Of a stretch of 32,000 bases of DNA, positions 1 through 6,291 are shown piece after piece; the first letter of the stretch is position 1, and every line of letters begins with the position of its first letter. The notes beneath the pieces were generated by a model. That model worked only from the letters and a program-made list of their open reading frames with translations. It did not search any database and was not told the origin of the DNA. The stretch is taken from NCBI RefSeq assembly GCF_001465295.1, contig NZ_CP011034.1, positions 2,310,001 to 2,342,000 on the forward strand, in the 5' to 3' direction. A program made the translations under genes and the position numbers. The stretch comes from Pseudoalteromonas translucida KMM 520. Lineage in GTDB: Bacteria; Pseudomonadota; Gammaproteobacteria; Enterobacterales; Alteromonadaceae.

Positions 1-65
1 TTCTAACGCTTAAAAGGTAATTCACCGAAATATGTTTTTTCAAATTGATAAATATGCTCTTAAAT

Positions 66-1250
66 TTATCCAATGTCATATTTTCGATCCTTTGGCTCAA
101 TTTCTTTAAGTCGCTCACTTATTTCGGTGTATTTATCTTTATATAATCTTTTTATAATTCCATTCATATAAACAACTAGGTTAAATCTTTTTTTGTACCA
201 GTATTTCTCCCTATAACTATCAGGGTAGGTTTCGAGCTTTTTAATTATAAAAAAACAATGTTTTATATCAACTGCCGATGGCAATGGCTGAATATCACTT
301 AAAGCGTTTTTAAAGTAGCCGTGTTTTGGATGCTTGACCCTTGCTAGCTTGTGAATGCGACCTAAACATCTATCAAAAGATCTGCGATAACTTCTGCTTT
401 TCCTAAAGTTATTTTCTTGAGCTTTCTTTGTTAATGCATGTACTTCTGCTCTGATTTTTGCAATCTCTTTAGCAGGTAAACGTGGCTGGTCAAACTCAAC
501 TCTAAGCCCGTGTACCATCAAGGGCTTTATCGAGCTATAAGACACCTCTTCTTTTTGCTCATTTATTGGCAAATCTTTTTGCAGAAGCATGTCTTCAATT
601 AATTTTTTTGCAGTGTTGAAATTAAAATTAGAAGCTGTACTAGAAACGGAGATATCATCAATGAACCTAGTATAAGTAAGTCCCTTACGTTCTAATCGTT
701 TAACCAGTAAGTGTTCTAAGTCAAAAAATATTAAGTTAGCTACATAGCTTGAGGTCAATGCGCCTTGAACCAATGTATTTTCAAAGCAACAAACATCACA
801 TATGAAATCGGCTACTTCATTTGAAAGATCTAAAGTATTAACCAAAATATCTTTTATATGCTCTTTATGAATATTATCGAAGAAATCTGATATATCCATT
901 TTTAAAAGGCTTTTTGCTCCACAATGCTTTTCAGCACATTTGATGTGGTCTCTGCTATCCTCAATTCCATTAATTAACTTTGGTATAGAACCGTATACAA
1001 ACTCAGGCCAAATTATTTTAGGCTTGAAAAAGCGGTTATTGATTCTTCTCTGAAATTTTCTGGTCAATTTATTAGGACATAAAACTCTTCTCTTAGAACC
1101 ATCACTTTTATATGCAGATTTAACAGGTTCACGATATCTAGAAGAGCTATTTGAGGATATAAAAGCTTCATAATCATCTTCTAAATCTAGAAAAGATATA
1201 AAGTTTTCAAGCTTTTTAATTGGGTCGCCTCGGTAATACTTAATTTCCAT
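66..1250 (-). CDS. Reverse transcriptase, retron-like or defence-associated (394 aa)
   Basis: RT motifs are visible in the ORF: KMDISDFFDNI (motif A Asp), LVQGALTSSYVANL (motif B), YTRFIDDISVS (catalytic xxDD) and LMVHGLRV. By eye these blocks parallel retron Ec86 RT as recalled from memory (NIDLEDFFPS, LPQGAPSSPKLANL, YTRYADDLT, VTGL). ATG at 1250-1248. A structured non-coding region lies immediately upstream. Confidence 0.8.
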   Translation of the reverse strand: MEIKYYRGDPIKKLENFISFLDLEDDYEAFISSNSSSRYREPVKSAYKSDGSKRRVLCPNKLTRKFQRRINNRFFKPKIIWPEFVYGSIPKLINGIEDSRDHIKCAEKHCGAKSLLKMDISDFFDNIHKEHIKDILVNTLDLSNEVADFICDVCCFENTLVQGALTSSYVANLIFFDLEHLLVKRLERKGLTYTRFIDDISVSSTASNFNFNTAKKLIEDMLLQKDLPINEQKEEVSYSSIKPLMVHGLRVEFDQPRLPAKEIAKIRAEVHALTKKAQENNFRKSRSYRRSFDRCLGRIHKLARVKHPKHGYFKNALSDIQPLPSAVDIKHCFFIIKKLETYPDSYREKYWYKKRFNLVVYMNGIIKRLYKDKYTEISERLKEIEPKDRKYDIG

Positions 1251-1267
1251 ATAATACCATTTTGGTT

Positions 1268-1481
1268 GGATGCCGTACCAAGCATGCGCTTTTATACCGT
1301 TTCTCTAGGCTAAAGGTTAACCATCACATTCTTTAAGTCAAATCTCAGCAACCACTGGTTAAACTTCGGTACGGCTGATCCATAGCTTGCTATTGCCTCC
1401 GCCAGCCGGAGGCGTGGTGGGGCCCTGAGCGTAGATGACATAGTCACCGTTATGTATGTAGCATACATAACACAGCTGAGA
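1268..1481 (-). ncRNA. Candidate RT-associated structured ncRNA (msr/msd-like); boundaries approximate
   Basis: No ORF in the track covers this 353-nt gap. It has a 10-bp stem with a 3-nt loop (1449-1471) and a GC-rich 7-bp hairpin (1395-1413). A long-range imperfect inverted repeat joins 1268-1282 and 1364-1381, with a perfect 8-bp core GCCGTACC/GGTACGGC. An inner 11-bp stem with one mismatch joins 1313-1323 and 1356-1366. A 7-bp inverted repeat joins 1343-1349 and 1475-1481. The GC-rich patch at 1395-1431 sits in an AT-rich context. Confidence 0.4.
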
Positions 1482-1572
1482 ATTTTTAATAACCTTAAAT
1501 GCAGTGAATAAGTGAATCACTTACGCAGATTACAATCTAATTGATAATCGACCATAATTCAACAAATTAAGA

Positions 1573-1592
1573 CAGCTTATTTATCTAAGCTG
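1573..1592 (-). terminator. Weak hairpin just after the tnsC stop (possible attenuator or terminator)
   Basis: CAGCTTA (1573-1579) pairs with TAAGCTG (1586-1592) around a 6-nt loop. On the minus strand it is followed by TCTTAATTTGTT. The stem is AT-rich, so the call is weak. Confidence 0.25.
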
Positions 1593-1603
1593 AATAAGTA
1601 AGG

Positions 1604-2605
1604 TTATTTCCTTAACAACTGACTAATCGGCATCCGGTCAGTAAACTTGGTCGCTATAAACGGGTCTTCATCTTGAGAGCTTTCAGGCTTATAAAGTGAA
1701 TAGCGCTCGACTTCGCTTGCTGTTATTTCTGCTACAGGCAAGGTAAATAAATTAGGAACATCCGGAAAGAGTACCTCAAATGCTTTAACTAAATGCTTGG
1801 TTGTGAGAGTTTTCGCGTTGTCCATTAATGCATAAAGTACGGCATCATCTAAAAAGTATTTTAATGTTCTAAAGCAACCTTTTGATAATGAGAACAAAGT
1901 AAACACTGTTGCTTGCTCACTTAAGTTTGGCTTTTCGGCAAATGGCATACGGTTGGCTAGACCAATTATTAGTTGTACAAAATGCTTTGGGTTTTCTGAC
2001 AACTTAAAATAAGGCAACTGCCGCCTTATTAATAAACGAGATGACCACTGGGGCTCGTCTGCTATTTTTTCTGCCCACGGCATACCTACCAATACAATTG
2101 ATACACCCGCTTCGTCGTTAATATATTTTAATCGATTAGCAATCTCGCGGCGCTTTTTACCTTGGTTGTGCTCAATTAGCTCTTGGAACTCATCAATAAT
2201 TATAAGCTCTGTGCCACATGTTTTTAGGCATTTTATTAATGATGTCGTTAAGCGAGTGCCGTTTATTCGTAGCTTACGCTCTGTGCTGCCTACTTGCCCT
2301 AAATCTTTAAGAAGCTCTGCTAAAGTAGATTCTAATGTCGGGTTACTAGGTATGCGGCTTACCAATACAGGGTGGTTCATAACACCATTAATAAATTGCG
2401 GTAAATGTCGTTCTTTATATTGCTTGATCAGTGCTGTTTTACCTGTGCCTGTATCGCCATTTAAGAGCATGCAAGGCTTTTCACCTGTTAGCCCTTTACC
2501 AAGTCTTAATCTATCGAAGTCGTTAAATATGGTGGTTATTATTGGGTATTCAATAAATACATCACGAAATTCATTCAGCTTTTCTTTTTGTTTATCGGTC
2601 AGCAT
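1604..2605 (-). CDS. tnsC: TnsC/TniB-like AAA+ transposition regulator (333 aa)
   Basis: Walker A is GDTGTGKT and Walker B is LIIIDEFQ. The start ATG lies 2 nt after the tnsB stop. The 333-aa length resembles the short TnsC of I-F3 CASTs rather than the 555-aa Tn7 TnsC. Confidence 0.85.
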   Translation of the reverse strand: MLTDKQKEKLNEFRDVFIEYPIITTIFNDFDRLRLGKGLTGEKPCMLLNGDTGTGKTALIKQYKERHLPQFINGVMNHPVLVSRIPSNPTLESTLAELLKDLGQVGSTERKLRINGTRLTTSLIKCLKTCGTELIIIDEFQELIEHNQGKKRREIANRLKYINDEAGVSIVLVGMPWAEKIADEPQWSSRLLIRRQLPYFKLSENPKHFVQLIIGLANRMPFAEKPNLSEQATVFTLFSLSKGCFRTLKYFLDDAVLYALMDNAKTLTTKHLVKAFEVLFPDVPNLFTLPVAEITASEVERYSLYKPESSQDEDPFIATKFTDRMPISQLLRK

Positions 2606-2607
2606 AA

Positions 2608-4431
2608 TTAAAATCCATCTAAGTCTGAGATAAAATCATCCCAGCTATCAGTTGGTTGCTCTTTAGGTGTAACCTTTTTGGCCTCTACGGGTTTGCTATG
2701 CGTTATTGACTTTTGTGAGTCACTACTGATATTTTGATGTTTAGCTAACGCTTTACCACCCTTTACTTTTGAGTGTTTTGGCGCATTTTTTAACTCTTCA
2801 AACTCGTTTTGAATTTTGTTATGAATAAACATGCGCGCTTTTGCTAAGCCTACATTATCGATAGAGCCCGAAATAAAGTCGCGGTGGATGCGTATATTTA
2901 TTTTATGCTGATTCAAACTTAAATTTTGGGTGTAACCGTTTGGATCTATGCATGGCACTTTTATGTAATGCTCTAGCTTATCAAGGTAAACATATATATA
3001 AGAAATATCATCGGGATTTAATTTAATTAAAACTTCTTGAGATACTTTATGGCTAAATTGCTTTCTATAATTGGCCAGTTCAGTACTGTCGTAGCTTAAG
3101 TTTTCTAGCCGTATCCCACCTTTACGAAGTACCCGATGATTTGAAATACTGAGCACAACATCTAGTTGTTGAAGATCAGCATCACTTAGCATTGTTGGTG
3201 GTAACGTATTAAAACCTTGATCCCACAGTTGACTCGGTATGTACTTAAAGCGACTGTCGGCATCTTGATGATAAACGTCTACTACCCATTTATGAAATAA
3301 CTGCATAAAGGTCGTAAAGCGCATGATTGCATCTTTTTTTGGATTGTATTCATGCTTTTGTAAAATGTTAGAAAAGGTTTTACCGGGAACAGGATCTAAT
3401 AACTCAGTATTTATTGTTCCAAACATACGTTCTACAAATGGTTTTAACCAAGGCTTTGCGACTGGGTTATATTGAGTATTAATGCCTATTTCTTCACAAG
3501 CAAGTTCAAGGCTGTTGCTCCAAAATTCAGCGCCATTATCAACAACGAGTGTTTCAATTTTGCCAGCACACTTCCACTCATTAATCGTATCAGGGTATAG
3601 TTTTGCCACTTCACTTTTAGGTTTCATCGCATTTAGCATTGCTCGCCTTACTGCATCATAGCTAGGCTCACTGAAGCTAAAGTAATAGCCAACAATACAA
3701 TGGCTATACACATCTACCAACATGGTGAGTGTAGGCCTACCTAGTGGAATATGTAGCTCATCATCTAATAAAATAAGATCAAGTGGCGTATGGTCAATTT
3801 CAACTTTTTCAAGTACTCGGATAGGCCGTTTATGCCCTTCAACCTTATTATAAGCAATATCAGCAAGGCGCTTACCATAACGAGCAATCATTACTTCGTA
3901 TTGCGGTAAGTTATCTATTCTGTTTTTAAACGCTTTGTATGTTAAAGGCTTTAAAACACTGTCAACAACACTGTCGTTTTCGATAATAACTAAGTCTTTA
4001 TAGAACTTGTAAGCCGAAGCCACTGATGGTTTTTCTTTTACTAAGTAACGCTCAAGTGCTTTTTCAAAAAACTTATCAGTGGTTGTATCGCGCTCCCTAT
4101 TACCCTTTTTTTGGTGGCTTGGTATTAGCGCCATAATATTTTTATCCGCATTGGTGTAAGCGCTATACCATCGTGCGGCTGTTCTCCAACTTGGCTTTTT
4201 TTCACCCTCAACATCAGGCATTAATTTTAATAAAGGTTCAAGATTTTTTTGTGTCCAACCACCTTGAATATTAGCCTCAAGCCATTGAATATATTTAAGC
4301 TTAGCAAATGTTGTTGTTTTTATTTTTTCAGGAAGGGCTTGTAAGTCTTTAGTGTAATTTTGAGGTAGTTTGGTTTCAGCTTTTGGTAATGGCTGGTTAA
4401 ACTCATCATCAAACAAATCGTTATTAAACAT
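2608..4431 (-). CDS. tnsB: TnsB DDE (rve-family) transposase (607 aa)
   Basis: Candidate DDE triad contexts are IDHTPLDL, VVDNGAEFW and KPFVERMF. It overlaps the tnsA stop by 8 nt. The order tnsA-tnsB-tnsC is canonical. Confidence 0.9.
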   Translation of the reverse strand: MFNNDLFDDEFNQPLPKAETKLPQNYTKDLQALPEKIKTTTFAKLKYIQWLEANIQGGWTQKNLEPLLKLMPDVEGEKKPSWRTAARWYSAYTNADKNIMALIPSHQKKGNRERDTTTDKFFEKALERYLVKEKPSVASAYKFYKDLVIIENDSVVDSVLKPLTYKAFKNRIDNLPQYEVMIARYGKRLADIAYNKVEGHKRPIRVLEKVEIDHTPLDLILLDDELHIPLGRPTLTMLVDVYSHCIVGYYFSFSEPSYDAVRRAMLNAMKPKSEVAKLYPDTINEWKCAGKIETLVVDNGAEFWSNSLELACEEIGINTQYNPVAKPWLKPFVERMFGTINTELLDPVPGKTFSNILQKHEYNPKKDAIMRFTTFMQLFHKWVVDVYHQDADSRFKYIPSQLWDQGFNTLPPTMLSDADLQQLDVVLSISNHRVLRKGGIRLENLSYDSTELANYRKQFSHKVSQEVLIKLNPDDISYIYVYLDKLEHYIKVPCIDPNGYTQNLSLNQHKINIRIHRDFISGSIDNVGLAKARMFIHNKIQNEFEELKNAPKHSKVKGGKALAKHQNISSDSQKSITHSKPVEAKKVTPKEQPTDSWDDFISDLDGF

Positions 4432-5074
4432 TGTTAGACCAAATTGCTGTTTCTATTGATATTTCATTTGTAGTTAAGTCGGCAAATAACTGCCCTAGTG
4501 ATAGTAAGCGAAGCACCGTAGCAAGTAGCTCACCGGCAGTTACTTTTAAATATCTGATTAACTGGCCCACTTTGATAGAGCCGTACTGCTTAACAAGTTC
4601 TAGTACCGATGCTTGCAATTCTGTTAAAGACTGAAAACCAGAGTAGCGATGCAAAAGCTTTAAGTTATTGAGTGTTGGGTATACACGGATTTGTTTATCA
4701 GTAACCAGTATTAAGTCGCGTCCATCTTGCTTAGCTATGGCTTGCTTTTCAATAAAACGTGCACGAAAGTCTTCGTCAGCAATTTTGCTTTGCGGTTTTA
4801 CTTCTATAAATTTTTGCGTGCCGTCTGTGTGGGTAAGTAAAAAGTCAGGTGTGTAACGGCAAATACGGTTATCGAACTCATATTCGTAACCTAGAGGTTG
4901 TGCTTCAAATGCGGCTATTGGTGGTGAAAATTCAAAATGGAAACACGCATCAAACTCTAAAGAGGATTCGACTAAACAAGTAGATTTATTTTTTTGACTA
5001 GCAAATTTATGAAGATTTTTTACACGGGAGTATTTTAGTTTTCTTCTGTACATGTGAGTCAACCATTTAACCAT
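4424..5074 (-). CDS. tnsA: TnsA endonuclease-like transposition protein (216 aa)
   Basis: Type II restriction-endonuclease-like TnsA motifs are present: ESSLEFDACFHFEF, YTPDFLL and IEVKP. It is the first gene inside the transposon end. An alternative ATG at 5053 is possible. Confidence 0.85.
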   Translation of the reverse strand: MVKWLTHMYRRKLKYSRVKNLHKFASQKNKSTCLVESSLEFDACFHFEFSPPIAAFEAQPLGYEYEFDNRICRYTPDFLLTHTDGTQKFIEVKPQSKIADEDFRARFIEKQAIAKQDGRDLILVTDKQIRVYPTLNNLKLLHRYSGFQSLTELQASVLELVKQYGSIKVGQLIRYLKVTAGELLATVLRLLSLGQLFADLTTNEISIETAIWSNNV

Positions 5075-5161
5075 TTGGTTAAATACTAGACTATGCCACC
5101 TTACACTTCCAATTTATGCCATCTTTTAGTACAGATATGTCAACTTATACTTCAAACAACA
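5041..5161 (-). repeat. Transposon right end: TGTTG terminus plus an array of candidate TnsB-binding repeats
   Basis: Read inward on the minus strand: TGTTGTTT GAAGTATAAGTTGACATATC TGTACTAAAAGATGGCATAAATTGGAAG TGTAAGGTGGCATAGTCTAGTA. The motif G(T/C)ATA(A/G) recurs three times. Two of these copies carry the longer ATAA(G/A)TTG, at 5141-5148 and 5110-5117; the third is GCATAG at 5092-5097. GTTGAC-N5-TGTAC occurs twice. The terminus resembles the Tn6677 end TGTTGATACAACCATAAAATG as recalled from memory. Confidence 0.55.
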
Positions 5162-5180
5162 CCCAAATGAGGAATTTGGG
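5162..5180 (-). terminator. Hairpin at the 3' end of ffs (terminator or processing stem)
   Basis: On the minus strand, CCCAAAT-TCCTC-ATTTGGG forms a 7-bp stem, followed directly by TGTTGTTT. That U-rich tail is supplied by the proposed transposon terminus. Confidence 0.45.
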
Positions 5181-5291
5181 TGGCAGTCTTACCAGCCACA
5201 TCTCGGCACACACGTCACAAACTGTGGCTGCTCCCTTCCGGGCCTGACCAGGTTCGCCTGCTAGTGTTGCGAGAGGACCAATAAGACTACC
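5178..5291 (-). ncRNA. ffs: 4.5S RNA / signal recognition particle RNA
   Basis: The minus-strand sequence is GGTAGTCTTATTGGTCCTCTCGCAAC...CCTGGTCAGGCCCGGAAGGGAGCAGCC...GCTGGTAAGACTGCCACCC. It is collinear with E. coli 4.5S RNA, which has CCAGGTCAGGTCCGGAAGGAAGCAGCC and an ACCC tail. Length is 114 nt. The 5' and 3' ends pair as a 10-bp stem. Confidence 0.9.
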
Positions 5292-5319
5292 ATTGAGGGC
5301 CTTGGTTGGCGCGGGAAGG

Positions 5320-5348
5320 ATTATCTCTACTTTTGCTACGTTATTCAA
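5320..5348 (-). promoter_or_regulatory. Candidate sigma70 promoter of ffs
   Basis: On the minus strand there is a TTGAAT -35 (5348-5343), a 17-nt spacer and a GATAAT -10 (5325-5320). The predicted start is about 22 nt upstream of the mature 5' end. That fits the roughly 24-nt RNase P-processed leader known for E. coli 4.5S. Confidence 0.45.
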
Positions 5349-5359
5349 GGGATAATCGA

Positions 5360-5400
5360 AAAAGAAAGTGCGATTGCATACTTCATATACAATCGCGGCC
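5360..5400 (-). terminator. Rho-independent terminator after the DUF3014-like gene
   Basis: The stem GCGATTG (5370-5376) / CAATCGC (5390-5396) has extra flanking pairs. On the minus strand it is followed by ACTTTCTTTTT. Confidence 0.55.
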
Positions 5401-5421
5401 TTTTAAACTGTTTTATGCTTA

Positions 5422-6291
5422 CTATTTGCTCTCTAACTGCGCTTTAATATTACGCAGTGCCGCTTTTACTTTTTTCATGTTCTCTGGGCCCATACGTAAA
5501 AGCTGTTTTTGTGCAGCGGGTAATTGCTCCCACTCTGCAAATGCATATTGGTAGGTTACTGAGTCGCGCAGCAAAGGTAAGTTACCTTCTGGCTCTGGTG
5601 TATCGAGTAATAAGTCGATTGCATTTTCAAGCGTTTGCGTAAACTCATCATCGCCGTAACCAATTTCAGTATAGGCATTATTAATAAGCGGTTTATATTC
5701 TTCAAATAAACGCACTGCTTGGGCGGCGCTCATACTAGTAAATATTTTCACATACGGGGTGTATCGTTCATAACTATTAGGATCAATAGTTAAAATATCA
5801 CCTTCTGTGACACTAAATTTTTCTTCTGGCTTTATTACTGGTGTATGTTTTGTAGCAACTTTGCCCTTTGCTAAATTATCAACAAACACCACACCACGGC
5901 GAATAACATCATCGGTAATCATTAGCTCCATTACCGAATCACTTAAGTATTCATCCATTTTTGCCACAACAACTGCATCACTTTCATCAAGTGGTGGTAA
6001 TTGCACGGCTGCTGGTTCTGCATCACGTTGCGCTGGCATTTCATAATCTTGAGGTTTATCTGGCAATACTGATGGTACATCTAAAGCGGGATCATTTTCT
6101 GGCTTTAGCTCCATCATAGGCTGCTCTACTGGTGCTGGCTCAACCTCAGTAAGCACTTCTGCCTCGTTGCTTGGCTTAAGCAATACAAATGCAGCGGCGC
6201 ATACGAGTACCACTAAAATAATAATGGCAAAAAGTAGATTGTTATTAGGTGGACGTTTTTGAACATCTGACGCTGATGGTTTATCTGACAT
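5422..6291 (-). CDS. Membrane-anchored protein of unknown function (DUF3014-like)
   Basis: There is a single N-terminal TM segment (LLFAIIILVVLVCAAAFVLL), then an acidic Pro-rich linker and a globular C-terminal domain. The start is set at ATG 6291 because GGAG sits 5 nt upstream; the track ORF begins at 6324. The family name is from memory. Confidence 0.6.
   Translation of the reverse strand: MSDKPSASDVQKRPPNNNLLFAIIILVVLVCAAAFVLLKPSNEAEVLTEVEPAPVEQPMMELKPENDPALDVPSVLPDKPQDYEMPAQRDAEPAAVQLPPLDESDAVVVAKMDEYLSDSVMELMITDDVIRRGVVFVDNLAKGKVATKHTPVIKPEEKFSVTEGDILTIDPNSYERYTPYVKIFTSMSAAQAVRLFEEYKPLINNAYTEIGYGDDEFTQTLENAIDLLLDTPEPEGNLPLLRDSVTYQYAFAEWEQLPAAQKQLLRMGPENMKKVKAALRNIKAQLESK

What the first reader, a model, noticed from the sequence alone, without database searches (positions are those of the whole stretch)
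1268..1481. Nested inverted repeats and GC-rich hairpins define a candidate template RNA upstream of the RT
Several structures are seen on the minus (RT-sense) strand:
- A 10-bp perfect stem with a 3-nt loop at 1471-1449.
- A GC-rich hairpin GCCTCCG/CGGAGGC at 1413-1395.
- A long-range stem pairing GGATCAGCCGTACCGAAG (1381-1364) with CTTGGTACGGCATCC (1282-1268). It gives about 15 bp with two small bulges and closes a 114-nt domain ending 17 nt before the RT ATG.
- Inside that domain, an 11-bp stem with one mismatch (1366-1356 with 1323-1313) caps a 32-nt loop.
- A 7-bp pair at 1481-1475 with 1349-1343, which could alternatively bracket the upstream hairpins.
- A tandem 8-mer AGTGAATA/AGTGAATC at 1503-1518, just upstream.

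The long terminal stem is reminiscent of retron a1/a2 repeats. However, the enclosed segment is short for msr plus msd, and two hairpins lie outside it, so the architecture is not a textbook retron.
Basis: seen in the sequence. Interest (0 to 1): 0.7.

Follow-up and report, generated by a model that had tools for sequence, protein, structure and literature searches.

The report
Template RNA of an Ec48-type retron
The hairpins upstream of the reverse transcriptase are the structured non-coding RNA of a known anti-phage system, a type IV (Ec48-like) retron riding in a CRISPR-associated transposon. It is an ordinary new member, but its RNA family has a conserved long-range fold that the textbook retron picture lacks.

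Summary
All but the tandem 8-mer belong to one RNA of about 260 nt on the minus strand (about 1526 to 1268).

The locus is a type IV retron:
- The RT (1250-66) matches PADLOC RT_IV at 456 bits.
- The next gene is the Ec48-family two-transmembrane effector (NF038235, 251 bits).
- The upstream RNA has the same ordered helices as the E. coli Ec48/Eco6 RNA.

In 59 homologous loci, 90% of cells pair, against 71% in shuffles and 30-40% in slid controls. 56 of 61 pairs show compensatory changes.

This pairing crosses the long stem, making a pseudoknot or an alternative fold.

Published Ec48 cDNA sequencing, transferred by alignment, puts the first copied base at C1377, the bulge in the long stem's 5' arm. 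Copying then runs through the GC-rich hairpin to about 1418-1421, giving about 42-45 nt of DNA. The priming G is unresolved; invariant G1471 is the best candidate.

Verdict: a new member of a known kind, of modest interest.

The parts
1268..1526 (-). Whole conserved retron non-coding RNA (msr-msd), about 259 nt, read from 1526 down to 1268. It probably continues into the RT mRNA.
   Evidence: nhmmer finds this element upstream of the RT in 87 of 114 type IV loci. The alignments are, and the covariation counts. A covariance model built without this clade hits 1528-1448(-) at 33.9 bits, E = 2.5e-7. A second such model hits 1382-1266(-) at 12.7 bits, E = 0.026.
1534..1562 (-). Promoter-like TTGAAT (1562-1557), 17-nt spacer, TAGATT (1539-1534). 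This would place the transcript start at about the invariant G1526.
   Evidence: Read by eye; it scores 8 of 12 and so falls below the scan threshold. A -10-like box ends 5-8 nt before the invariant GC in E. coli, Pseudomonas and the Pseudoalteromonas-clade loci. This is inference.
1508..1524 (-). Hairpin P1 (GUAAGUG AUU CACUUAU), preceded by the invariant G1526 and C1525.
Evidence: 94.8% of cells are paired and 5 of 7 pairs are compensatory.
1475..1507 (-). 5' strands of the long-range pairing: W5 1507-1504, X5 1499-1494, Y5 1481-1475. This is the a2-like strand.
   Evidence: They pair with 1327-1324, 1337-1332 and 1349-1343. W is 94.5% paired, X 96.3% and Y 81.9%, and every pair has changes on both sides. 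The sequences differ but stay complementary in E. coli, Pseudomonas, L009 and L010.
1471..1471 (-). Invariant G, the first base of P2, 4-5 nt after Y5. It is the best candidate for the 2'-OH priming (branching) guanosine.
   Evidence: Invariant in the alignment and 61 of 61, in a U/A-G-C context. It lies on the opposite strand from invariant G1352 at the inner end of helix Y. The assignment is inferred, not shown.
1449..1471 (-). Probable msr hairpin.
   Evidence: Verified. The base of the stem is conserved and covaries (92.9% paired).
1434..1448 (-). Hairpin P3 (GGUGAC UAU GUCAUC). Probable msr hairpin.
   Evidence: Verified. 88.2% of cells are paired and all 9 pairs are compensatory.
1377..1421 (-). 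Predicted reverse-transcribed segment (msd). Copying starts at C1377 and ends at about A1418-C1421. The predicted msDNA is the plus-strand sequence 1377 to about 1418-1421 (42-45 nt).
   Evidence: The sequenced Ec48 cDNA begins GTACGTAATGTCG..., the complement of L014 C2241. C2241 is column 210 of alignment A2, which is window C1377. The Ec48 3' ends, 48 nt as reported and 3 nt shorter on re-sequencing, map by motif alignment to C1421 and to the invariant A1418. The transfer carries an uncertainty of about 3 nt.
1395..1413 (-). GC-rich hairpin M (GCCUCCG GCUGG CGGAGGC), the msd stem-loop.
   Evidence: It aligns to the Ec48 hairpin into whose loop two laboratories placed editing donors. It lies inside the sequenced Ec48 cDNA. 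It is the part of the family most variable in length.
1382..1393 (-). Small hairpin Mc (AUAGC AA GCUAU), inside the predicted template.
   Evidence: Verified. Present in the six-sequence clade consensus.
1368..1381 (-). 5' arm of the long stem LS: GGAU, bulge C1377 A1376, then GCCGUACC.
   Evidence: Pairs with 1279-1268. Compensatory changes occur within the clade and across the family (88.3% paired, 10 of 10 pairs compensatory).
1312..1367 (-). Stem H1 (1367-1356 with 1323-1312) and its 32-nt loop. The loop carries invariant G1355 and G1352, then strands Y3 (1349-1343), X3 (1337-1332) and W3 (1327-1324), the a1-like strand, and invariant G1331 and A1329.
1296..1310 (-). Hairpin H2, with a highly conserved loop.
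   Evidence: 94% of cells are paired. C1309 and G1297 are invariant or nearly so.
1280..1291 (-). Hairpin H3 (AAGC GCAU GCUU), an insertion specific to the Pseudoalteromonas clade.
   Evidence: Compensatory changes in 3 of its 4 pairs among six relatives.
1268..1279 (-). 3' arm of the long stem LS (GGUACGGC AUCC). It ends 17 nt before the RT start codon.
66..1250 (-). Retron reverse transcriptase, 394 aa.
   Evidence: PADLOC RT_IV, 456.3 bits, profile positions 6-385 of 386. Pfam RVT_1. 399 homologues.
1..79 (-). First 26 codons of the two-transmembrane effector (MTLDKFKSIF...). It overlaps the RT stop and continues beyond the window.
   Evidence: The full gene in L001:7172-7948 matches NF038235 retron_Ec48_2TM at 250.8 bits (cut-off 65) and PADLOC 2TM_IV.
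1573..1592 (-). Terminator-like hairpin after tnsC. It separates the transposase operon from the retron.

Best explanation
The interval is the core of the msr-msd non-coding RNA of a type IV (Ec48/Retron-Eco6 family) retron. The gene order is ncRNA (about 1526-1268), RT (1250-66), two-transmembrane effector (from 79, running off the window).

Shown here:
- The RNA forms a conserved set of helices: P1, P2, P3, M, LS, H1 and H2.
- A three-part long-range pairing (W, X, Y) joins the 5' region to the loop of H1 and crosses H1 and LS.

Transferred by homology from the sequenced Ec48 cDNA:
- The RT starts copying at C1377, the bulge in the 5' arm of LS.
- It copies through hairpins Mc and M.
- It stops near the invariant A1418, giving a DNA of about 42-45 nt with a hairpin.

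Inferred:
- W/X/Y plays the role of the a2/a1 duplex.
- Invariant G1471, just after Y5, supplies the priming 2'-OH.
- Invariant G1352, just before Y3, is the second G.
- The segment between G1352 and C1377 is looped out or folded as a small hairpin when priming occurs.
- LS and H1, formed with the 3' tail, are either a resting conformer or a scaffold.

Inferred from Ec48 experiments: the RT-msDNA complex keeps the membrane effector silent until phage inhibitors of RecBCD trigger abortive infection.
For: System identity:
- RT_IV at 456 bits over the full profile, against RT_V at 193 bits and Drt2 at 35 bits.
- The effector is an NF038235 equivalog at 251 bits and matches PADLOC 2TM_IV.
- Close RT relatives all carry a Retron_Ec48_antiviral gene downstream and have 650-790-nt upstream gaps.

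RNA family:
- A 250-nt conserved element is found in 87 of 114 loci.
- Covariation: 90.4% paired against 71.2% shuffled and about 40% slid.
- A 5'-domain model built without this clade hits only 1528-1448(-) in the 32-kb window, E = 2.5e-7.
- L014 is Ec48 itself. Published Ec48 primers and the published ncRNA match it, and RefSeq names its effector as Ec48 family.

Template:
- The Ec48 RT-DNA sequence starts at the complement of L014 C2241, inside the 5' arm of LS, and runs through the M hairpin.
- Donors placed in the M loop gave editing (0.66%).
- The corresponding 48-nt Ec48 DNA folds into a 13-bp hairpin.

Invariant Gs flanking helix Y.

Mechanism of the family.
Against: - Sequence similarity between this clade's RNA and Ec48's is weak. 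An HMM from the clade alone does not reach E. coli or Pseudomonas.
- The 3'-domain model scores only 12.7 bits. The start-site transfer therefore rests on a structural alignment, good to about 3 nt.
- No priming G is proven.
- The small hairpin needed to bring C1377 next to G1352 is compatible with the data (89.8% paired) but not supported by covariation (shuffles give 88.4%). It is weak in this locus (3 of 4 pairs).
- W/X/Y and H1/LS may not coexist sterically.
- No transcript or msDNA data exist for this organism.
- The RT-DNA string listed runs far beyond 48 nt, so its 3' end was taken instead.
Confidence: 0.88

Rival explanations
1. The long stem (1381-1364 with 1282-1268) is the a1/a2 duplex of a compact retron RNA. 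The priming G lies just after its 5' arm, and msr plus msd lie inside the 114-nt domain. The upstream hairpins are accessory.
For: The stem is real, conserved and covarying. A G follows its 5' arm in this locus (G1364), in E. coli and in Pseudomonas. Initiation in Ec48 does occur within this arm.
Against: - The Ec48 cDNA runs away from the enclosed domain, towards the 5' side, through hairpin M.
- The columns after the 5' arm hold no conserved G.
- The residue after the inner half of the 3' arm is G in only 14 of 55 sequences.
- The upstream 150 nt are as conserved as the domain and pair into its loop.
Confidence: 0.05
2. Same retron, different wiring. The long stem and H1, not W/X/Y, form the working scaffold. 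The primer is a residue of the 3' domain or the 5'-terminal G1526, brought to C1377 by tertiary folding. W/X/Y only clamps the 5' domain to the 3' domain.
For: - LS and H1 are thermodynamically dominant and covary strongly.
- C1377 and A1376 are bulged, hence exposed, in LS in all six clade members.
- G1526 and C1525 are invariant or nearly so.
- In E. coli a G in the 3' arm of LS faces the first template base.
- The Khan et al. Ec48 ncRNA starts 20 nt upstream of a TTAG.
Against: - The facing residue is A in most of the family.
- Conserved -10-like boxes put the transcript start at about G1526, leaving no a2 upstream.
- Cognate upstream/a1 duplexes are no better than non-cognate ones, although the positive control in that test also failed.
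- The two most invariant Gs sit at the inner end of helix Y.
Confidence: 0.25
3. Not a retron RNA. It is instead a leader or riboregulator of RT translation, a transposon-associated RNA, or the template of another defence RT (DRT2-like rolling-circle or DGR-like).
For: - The 3' arm of LS ends 17 nt before the RT start codon.
- The sibling type VI retrons use the RNA to gate translation.
- The locus sits inside a Tn7-like element.
Against: - The same RNA accompanies the RT outside transposons, in a P2-like prophage in E. coli and at chromosomal sites.
- Ec48 makes msDNA from the homologous RNA.
- The Drt2 and Drt3a profiles score only 35-38 bits.
- There is no second copy of the interval in the window to serve as a DGR target.
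- No Rfam family matches.
Confidence: 0.03
4. The interval encodes a small protein. Candidates are the 52-aa ORF at 1468-1310 and the 53-aa ORF at 1520-1359, both on the minus strand.
For: ORFs of 52 and 53 aa are present.
Against: The longest ATG ORF in the homologous regions of L009-L012 is 21-36 aa, so the ORFs are not conserved. Substitutions follow base-pairing, not codons.
Confidence: 0.01

Closest known systems
Retron-Eco6 (Ec48), type IV retron of E. coli (ncRNA, RT, two-transmembrane effector)
   Same: - Same gene order.
- RT in the same PADLOC profile, and effector in the same NCBIfam equivalog.
- The RNA has the same ordered helices P1, W/X/Y, P2, P3, M, LS, H1 and H2, and the same invariant bases.
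   Different: - The RT is only about 40-43% identical.
- RNA sequence similarity is marginal outside the 5' domain.
- In this clade LS is longer and carries a CA bulge at the predicted start site.
- There is an extra hairpin H3 and an extra hairpin Mc.
- The predicted DNA is about 42-45 nt rather than 48.
- The host element is a CRISPR-associated transposon, not a P2-like prophage.
Canonical retrons such as Retron-Eco1 (Ec86): a2, priming G, msr hairpins, msd stem-loop, G, a1
   Same: - An RT-adjacent upstream RNA on the same strand.
- Short hairpins followed by a variable stem-loop that is copied.
- A long-range duplex with two conserved Gs at its inner end.
- A short hairpin DNA product.
   Different: - The first copied base is not contiguous with the a1-like strand. 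About 25 nt lie between them.
- That stretch and the first copied bases pair with a conserved 3' tail (LS, H1, H2) that has no counterpart in the textbook RNA.
- There is an extra 5' hairpin P1.
- The a2/a1 analogue is split into three short helices.
Type VI retron Retron-Vpa2 hybrid RNA (same RT clade 3)
   Same: The msd is not contiguous with the a1-like repeat, and extra arms lie between them. The RNA is much larger than a textbook msr-msd.
   Different: Type VI carries a toxic small-protein ORF inside the RNA and an HTH partner, and it represses msDNA until triggered. Here there is no conserved ORF. Ec48 makes msDNA constitutively.
Type V retron Retron-Sen1 (Se72)
   Same: Second-best RT profile (RT_V, 193 bits). 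Same clade 3, and triggered by the same RecBCD inhibitor Gam.
   Different: Its effector is a cold-shock-domain protein, not a two-transmembrane protein. Its RNA was not compared here.

Membership tests
Retron (general) | Reverse transcriptase of the retron lineage | tested here: met
   The top 20 or so PADLOC hits are retron RT profiles, with RT_IV at 456 bits. Pfam RVT_1 is present. The catalytic F-I-D-D lies in the invariant YTRxxDD block. NCBIfam retron models score below their cut-offs because none covers type IV RTs.
Retron (general) | Structured non-coding RNA directly next to the RT on the same strand | tested here: met
Retron (general) | Terminal inverted repeats a1/a2 closing the RNA, with a conserved G on each strand at the stem end | tested here: inconclusive
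   A covarying long-range duplex (W/X/Y) has invariant G1471 and G1352 at its inner end. However, it is not terminal, it crosses H1 and LS, and the experimentally anchored start site (C1377) lies 25 nt away from G1352.
Retron (general) | Production of 2'-5' branched multicopy single-stranded DNA | not testable with these tools
   Known for the E. coli homologue only.
Type IV retron (Ec48/Eco6 family) | RT of clade 3, type IV | tested here: met
   RT_IV at 456 bits, profile positions 6-385 of 386. The Ec48 locus RT itself scores 586 bits on the same profile.
Type IV retron (Ec48/Eco6 family) | Two-transmembrane effector gene just downstream of, or overlapping, the RT gene | tested here: met
   The start codon at 79 overlaps the RT stop at 66-68. 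The full protein in L001 matches NF038235 at 250.8 bits (cut-off 65) and 2TM_IV at 175.8 bits.
Type IV retron (Ec48/Eco6 family) | ncRNA homologous to the Ec48 ncRNA | tested here: met
   The 5'-domain covariance model, which includes Ec48 and excludes this clade, gives 33.9 bits, E = 2.5e-7, as the only hit in the window. The 3'-domain model gives the top hit at the right place but only 12.7 bits. The helix order and invariant bases are shared.
Type IV retron (Ec48/Eco6 family) | Defence triggered by RecBCD inhibition, leading to abortive infection | not testable with these tools
   Literature on Ec48 only.
DRT2 / other defence RTs with template RNA | RT matching the Drt2 or Drt3 profile | tested here: not met
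   Drt2 scores 34.6 bits (cut-off 390) and Drt3a 37.6 bits (cut-off 200).
Diversity-generating retroelement | Template repeat with a near-identical variable repeat in a target gene | tested here: not met
   The interval has no second copy in the 32-kb window.
Any Rfam family | Match to a curated covariance model | tested here: not met
   There is no hit in the interval at gathering scores. Only chance-level hits appear at E up to 10.

The most novel reading that the evidence does not exclude
Type IV retron RNAs may be built on a non-textbook plan that has not been spelled out:
- The a2-like 5' strand pairs, in three short helices, with the apical loop of a conserved 3' domain.
- The first copied bases and the stretch between them and the a1-like strand are held by a 3' tail that lies beyond a1.
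- Priming would therefore need either a pseudoknotted scaffold or a switch between two folds.

This would explain why clade 3 retron RNAs trimmed to a predicted a1/a2 gave no DNA in the published census. It would also tell engineers which flanks to keep.
Probability: 0.35. Interest if true: 0.6.

Novelty: new member of a known kind. Interest (0 to 1): 0.38.

Why it matters
For this genome, the result annotates an unlabelled 350-nt gap as the RNA component of a complete anti-phage retron. The retron is carried, together with a Pycsar system, as cargo between tnsC and tniQ of a type I-F3 CRISPR-associated transposon inserted next to the SRP RNA gene.

More generally, the 59-locus comparison gives a testable secondary-structure map for the Ec48 family. 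It includes a crossing long-range pairing and a conserved 3' domain.

Khan et al. reported that clade 3 retrons, trimmed to a canonical RNA, produce no DNA, and asked whether their RNA is non-canonical. This map offers a concrete answer to test, and it is relevant to using small-msDNA retrons as editing tools.

Tried and rejected
1. Rfam at gathering and permissive thresholds found nothing in the interval.
2. I first hypothesised that the copied segment is the 46-48 nt between hairpin M and strand Y3 (window 1394-1353). The geometry looked canonical, and in Ec48 the count came to exactly 48. The sequenced Ec48 RT-DNA rejected this: it starts 21-25 nt further 5' and includes M.
3. I considered a circularly permuted model, with M as a closed a1/a2 and the invariant AG after it as the branch point. 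The same data rejected it.
4. I tested for an a2 upstream of the invariant G1526. Cognate upstream/a1 duplex energies were no better than non-cognate ones. The positive control also failed to separate, so the test is underpowered.
5. I looked for G-U depletion in the copied hairpin as a sign of a DNA-level constraint. The values were 5.5-7.9% against 4-16% in other helices, which does not discriminate.
6. An HMM built from the five closest relatives alone reached only one further locus (L016), not E. coli.
7. A small hairpin could bring the start site next to G1352. It is compatible with the data but has no significant covariation.
8. Searches for the printed Ec48 msDNA sequence failed. The Mao 1997 paper is not held, there were no text hits for the sequence, and several supplements held only images.
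9. MAFFT structural modes were not installed.
Full report
CONTEXT. On the minus strand the window reads as follows:
- a DUF3014 gene (6324-5422);
- the SRP RNA gene (5283-5187; Rfam, 73.5 bits);
- tnsA, tnsB and a TniB-type tnsC (5074-1604);
- a terminator-like hairpin (1592-1573);
- a 353-nt gap (1603-1251);
- a 394-aa reverse transcriptase (1250-66).

The window is a near-identical relative of Pseudoalteromonas sp. A601 contig1, held as L001. The gap is identical in both. L001 shows what lies beyond the window start, in this order:
- a two-transmembrane protein overlapping the RT stop;
- an HTH protein;
- a Pycsar effector and cyclase;
- TniQ;
- a Cas_Csy2-containing protein.

The RT locus is therefore cargo of a type I-F3 CRISPR-associated Tn7-like transposon inserted beside ffs.

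THE OBSERVATION. The interval folds better than shuffles, but only modestly (z about -2.3 to -2.5). Single-sequence folding therefore does not settle anything.

WHAT THE SYSTEM IS.
- The RT matches the PADLOC type IV retron profile over its whole length (456 bits; next best are RT_V at 193 and RT_VI at 165).
- It matches Drt2 and Drt3a only weakly.
- The downstream protein is an equivalog-level match to the Ec48-family effector membrane protein (NF038235, 250.8 bits against a cut-off of 65) and to PADLOC 2TM_IV.
- Mestre et al. define type IV as a clade 3 RT with a two-transmembrane protein just downstream of, or overlapping, the RT, with Retron-Eco6 (Ec48) as the described member.
- The closest RT relatives (53-66% identity) all have a Retron_Ec48_antiviral gene downstream and a 650-790-nt non-coding stretch upstream, in varied genomic settings.
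- In E. coli the homologous cassette sits in P2-like prophage pro147 (L014). RefSeq calls its second gene an Ec48-family effector.
- L014 is Ec48 itself. Published Ec48 cloning primers and the published Ec48 ncRNA match L014 2075-2260, apart from scanning errors.

THE RNA FAMILY. Aligning the upstream regions showed a conserved element of about 250 nt that ends just before the RT start. A profile seeded from eight loci found it in 87 of 114 type IV loci gathered from genomes, metagenomes and viral contigs.

A scan of all column pairs, made without any prior structure, recovered these helices. Coordinates are on the window minus strand.
- P1: 1524-1518/1514-1508
- P2: 1471-1449
- P3: 1448-1434
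- H2: 1310-1296
- W: 1507-1504 with 1327-1324
- X: 1499-1494 with 1337-1332

On a 59-sequence alignment, the ten helices are 90.4% paired. Column shuffles give 71.2% (0 of 500 reach the observed value) and slid registers give 30-40%. 56 of 61 pairs change on both sides. W, X and Y are 94.5%, 96.3% and 81.9% paired, and every one of their pairs is compensatory.

W, X and Y join the 5' region to the loop of H1. They therefore cross H1 and LS, which means either a pseudoknot or an alternative fold.

Within the six-member Pseudoalteromonas clade, LS, H1 and H2 all show compensatory changes, as does an extra small hairpin, H3 (1291-1280). LS keeps a two-base CA bulge at 1377-1376.

The tandem 8-mer is the loop and 3' arm of P1 followed by W5. 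It is not repetitive in the family consensus.

HOW FAR THE HOMOLOGY TO Ec48 HOLDS. A profile built from this clade alone does not reach E. coli or Pseudomonas, so raw sequence similarity is low. Two covariance models were built only from loci outside the clade.
- The 5'-domain model, which includes Ec48, finds a single hit in the whole 32-kb window. It lies at 1528-1448 on the minus strand, at 33.9 bits and E = 2.5e-7.
- The 3'-domain model puts its best hit on 1382-1266, full length, but at only 12.7 bits and E = 0.026, with filters off.

Three further points support homology: the identical helix order, the position and strand relative to homologous RT and effector genes, and the shared invariant bases. 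Those bases are G1526, C1525, C1501, A1500, G1471, C1449, A1418, A1391, G1390, G1355, G1352, G1331, A1329, C1309 and G1297. Together I take the homology as established, with the 3' domain more diverged.

WHICH PART IS COPIED. My first model had copying start next to strand Y3. In Ec48 this gave exactly 48 nt up to hairpin M.

The supplemental data of the Khan et al. census list the sequenced Ec48 RT-DNA. It begins 5'-GTACGTAATGTCGTCGGCTACGGCACCATCGTAG. That is the complement of L014 starting at C2241 and running towards the 5' end. C2241 lies inside the 5' arm of LS (TTACGTAC|GGTC), and the DNA runs through hairpin M. My first model is therefore wrong.

Other data agree with this placement:
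- Kong et al. and Khan et al. (positions 130;136) both put editing donors in the M loop.
- Weak but real editing was recorded (0.66%).
- The 48-nt DNA folds into a 13-bp hairpin.

In the alignment, C2241 is column 210, which is window C1377, the first base of the CA bulge. The reported 48-nt 3' end, and the 3-nt shorter 3' end found on re-sequencing, map to C1421 and to the invariant A1418. The predicted product here is therefore the plus-strand sequence from 1377 to about 1418-1421. It is 42-45 nt long and carries the GCCTCCG/CGGAGGC hairpin. The alignment transfer is good to about 3 nt.

WHAT PRIMES. This is not resolved. The two most invariant Gs of the RNA, G1471 and G1352, sit on opposite strands at the inner end of helix Y. 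Each is separated from Y by 3-5 mostly U residues. This is the arrangement described for canonical retrons, where a duplex ends in two conserved Gs, one of which primes.

The difficulty is that C1377 lies 25 nt 5' of G1352. The gap could be extruded as a small hairpin (window 1375-1372 with 1357-1354). That would make C1377 and G1352 neighbours and restore the canonical geometry. The hairpin is 89.8% paired across the family, but it is no better than shuffles (88.4%), because one side is nearly invariant. Only one pair shows real compensation, and in this locus only 3 of 4 pairs form. I therefore present G1471 as the most likely primer, not as a result.

Other possibilities remain:
- a residue in the 3' arm of LS facing the start site, which is G in E. 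coli but in only 14 of 55 sequences;
- the invariant G1526, which conserved -10-like boxes suggest is the transcript start.

The sibling type VI retrons also have an msd that is not contiguous with the a1-like repeat. Non-contiguity therefore has a precedent in this RT clade.

FUNCTION. For Ec48 the published work shows defence that needs the RT and the transmembrane helices of the effector. The triggers are the phage RecBCD inhibitors Gam and gp5.9, and the outcome is abortive infection. None of this can be tested here. It is inferred for this locus from the equivalog-level matches.

RIVALS.
- A non-retron role is unlikely. The same RNA travels with the RT outside transposons, the homologue makes msDNA, and the small ORFs in the gap are not conserved.

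NOVELTY AND INTEREST. The system is a new member of a known type. What may be new is the explicit fold of the type IV RNA. Khan et al. found no RT-DNA from clade 3 retrons when the RNA was trimmed to a predicted a1/a2, and they suggested the RNA might be non-canonical. Their own Ec48 RNA ends at L014 2260, before Y3 and the whole 3' tail. The crossing pairing and the conserved 3' domain described here are candidates for what was missing. I could not see the supplementary type IV consensus figure of Mestre et al., so I cannot say how much of this is already drawn there.

Noticed in passing
window 1604-5283 (minus strand); L001:7172-13182: The retron is cargo of a Tn7-like, type I-F3 CRISPR-associated transposon. 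The SRP RNA gene (5283-5187) is followed by the transposon end and tnsA-tnsB-tnsC. Beyond the window lie an HTH protein, a Pycsar effector and cyclase, TniQ and a Cas_Csy2-containing protein. The defence cargo sits between tnsC and tniQ.
   Followed up: partly
window about 5075-5185 (minus strand): The stretch between ffs and tnsA holds the presumed transposon right end. Read by eye, it begins near TGTTGTTTGAAG and contains repeated motifs of the form TTGACAT / GATGGCATA / GGTGGCATA, which look like TnsB-binding sites. I did not analyse it.
   Followed up: no
L009 (Pseudoalteromonas rubra) 946-5930: A 65%-identical retron sits next to the same DUF3014 gene, with an IS630-type transposase in place of tnsABC. 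The same chromosomal neighbourhood is therefore occupied by the retron in a different mobile context.
   Followed up: no
L014 (Escherichia phage pro147, KR073660.1 20414-26445): The Ec48 retron lies in a P2-like prophage next to the capsid-packaging and terminase genes. The GenBank record annotates the two-transmembrane effector as 'alkylated DNA repair protein AlkB', which is a misannotation. The cassette or parts of it match 2135 of 5426 complete E. coli genomes, but only 57 carry at least 80% of it.
   Followed up: partly
window 1376-1377 (minus strand): The CA bulge in the long stem is conserved in all six Pseudoalteromonas-clade RNAs. It coincides with the start site predicted from Ec48. 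In E. coli and most of the family the stem is continuous at that point.
   Followed up: partly
window 1416-1422 (minus strand), motif CCCCACC: A1418 is invariant in all sequences. By alignment it is the position where the re-sequenced Ec48 DNA ends. In most family members it lies in the loop of a hairpin (Ma) that this clade and E. coli lack.
   Followed up: partly
L003-L007 (Pseudomonas), just after the 3' arm of LS: The last bases of the long stem can instead form a small hairpin with downstream sequence (CCTAT TTTTA ATAGG) directly before the RT start. This could link the RNA fold to RT translation. I did not examine it.
   Followed up: no
window 1310-1520 (minus strand): Two overlapping ORFs of 52 and 53 aa lie inside the RNA. 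They are not conserved in relatives and are treated as spurious.
   Followed up: yes
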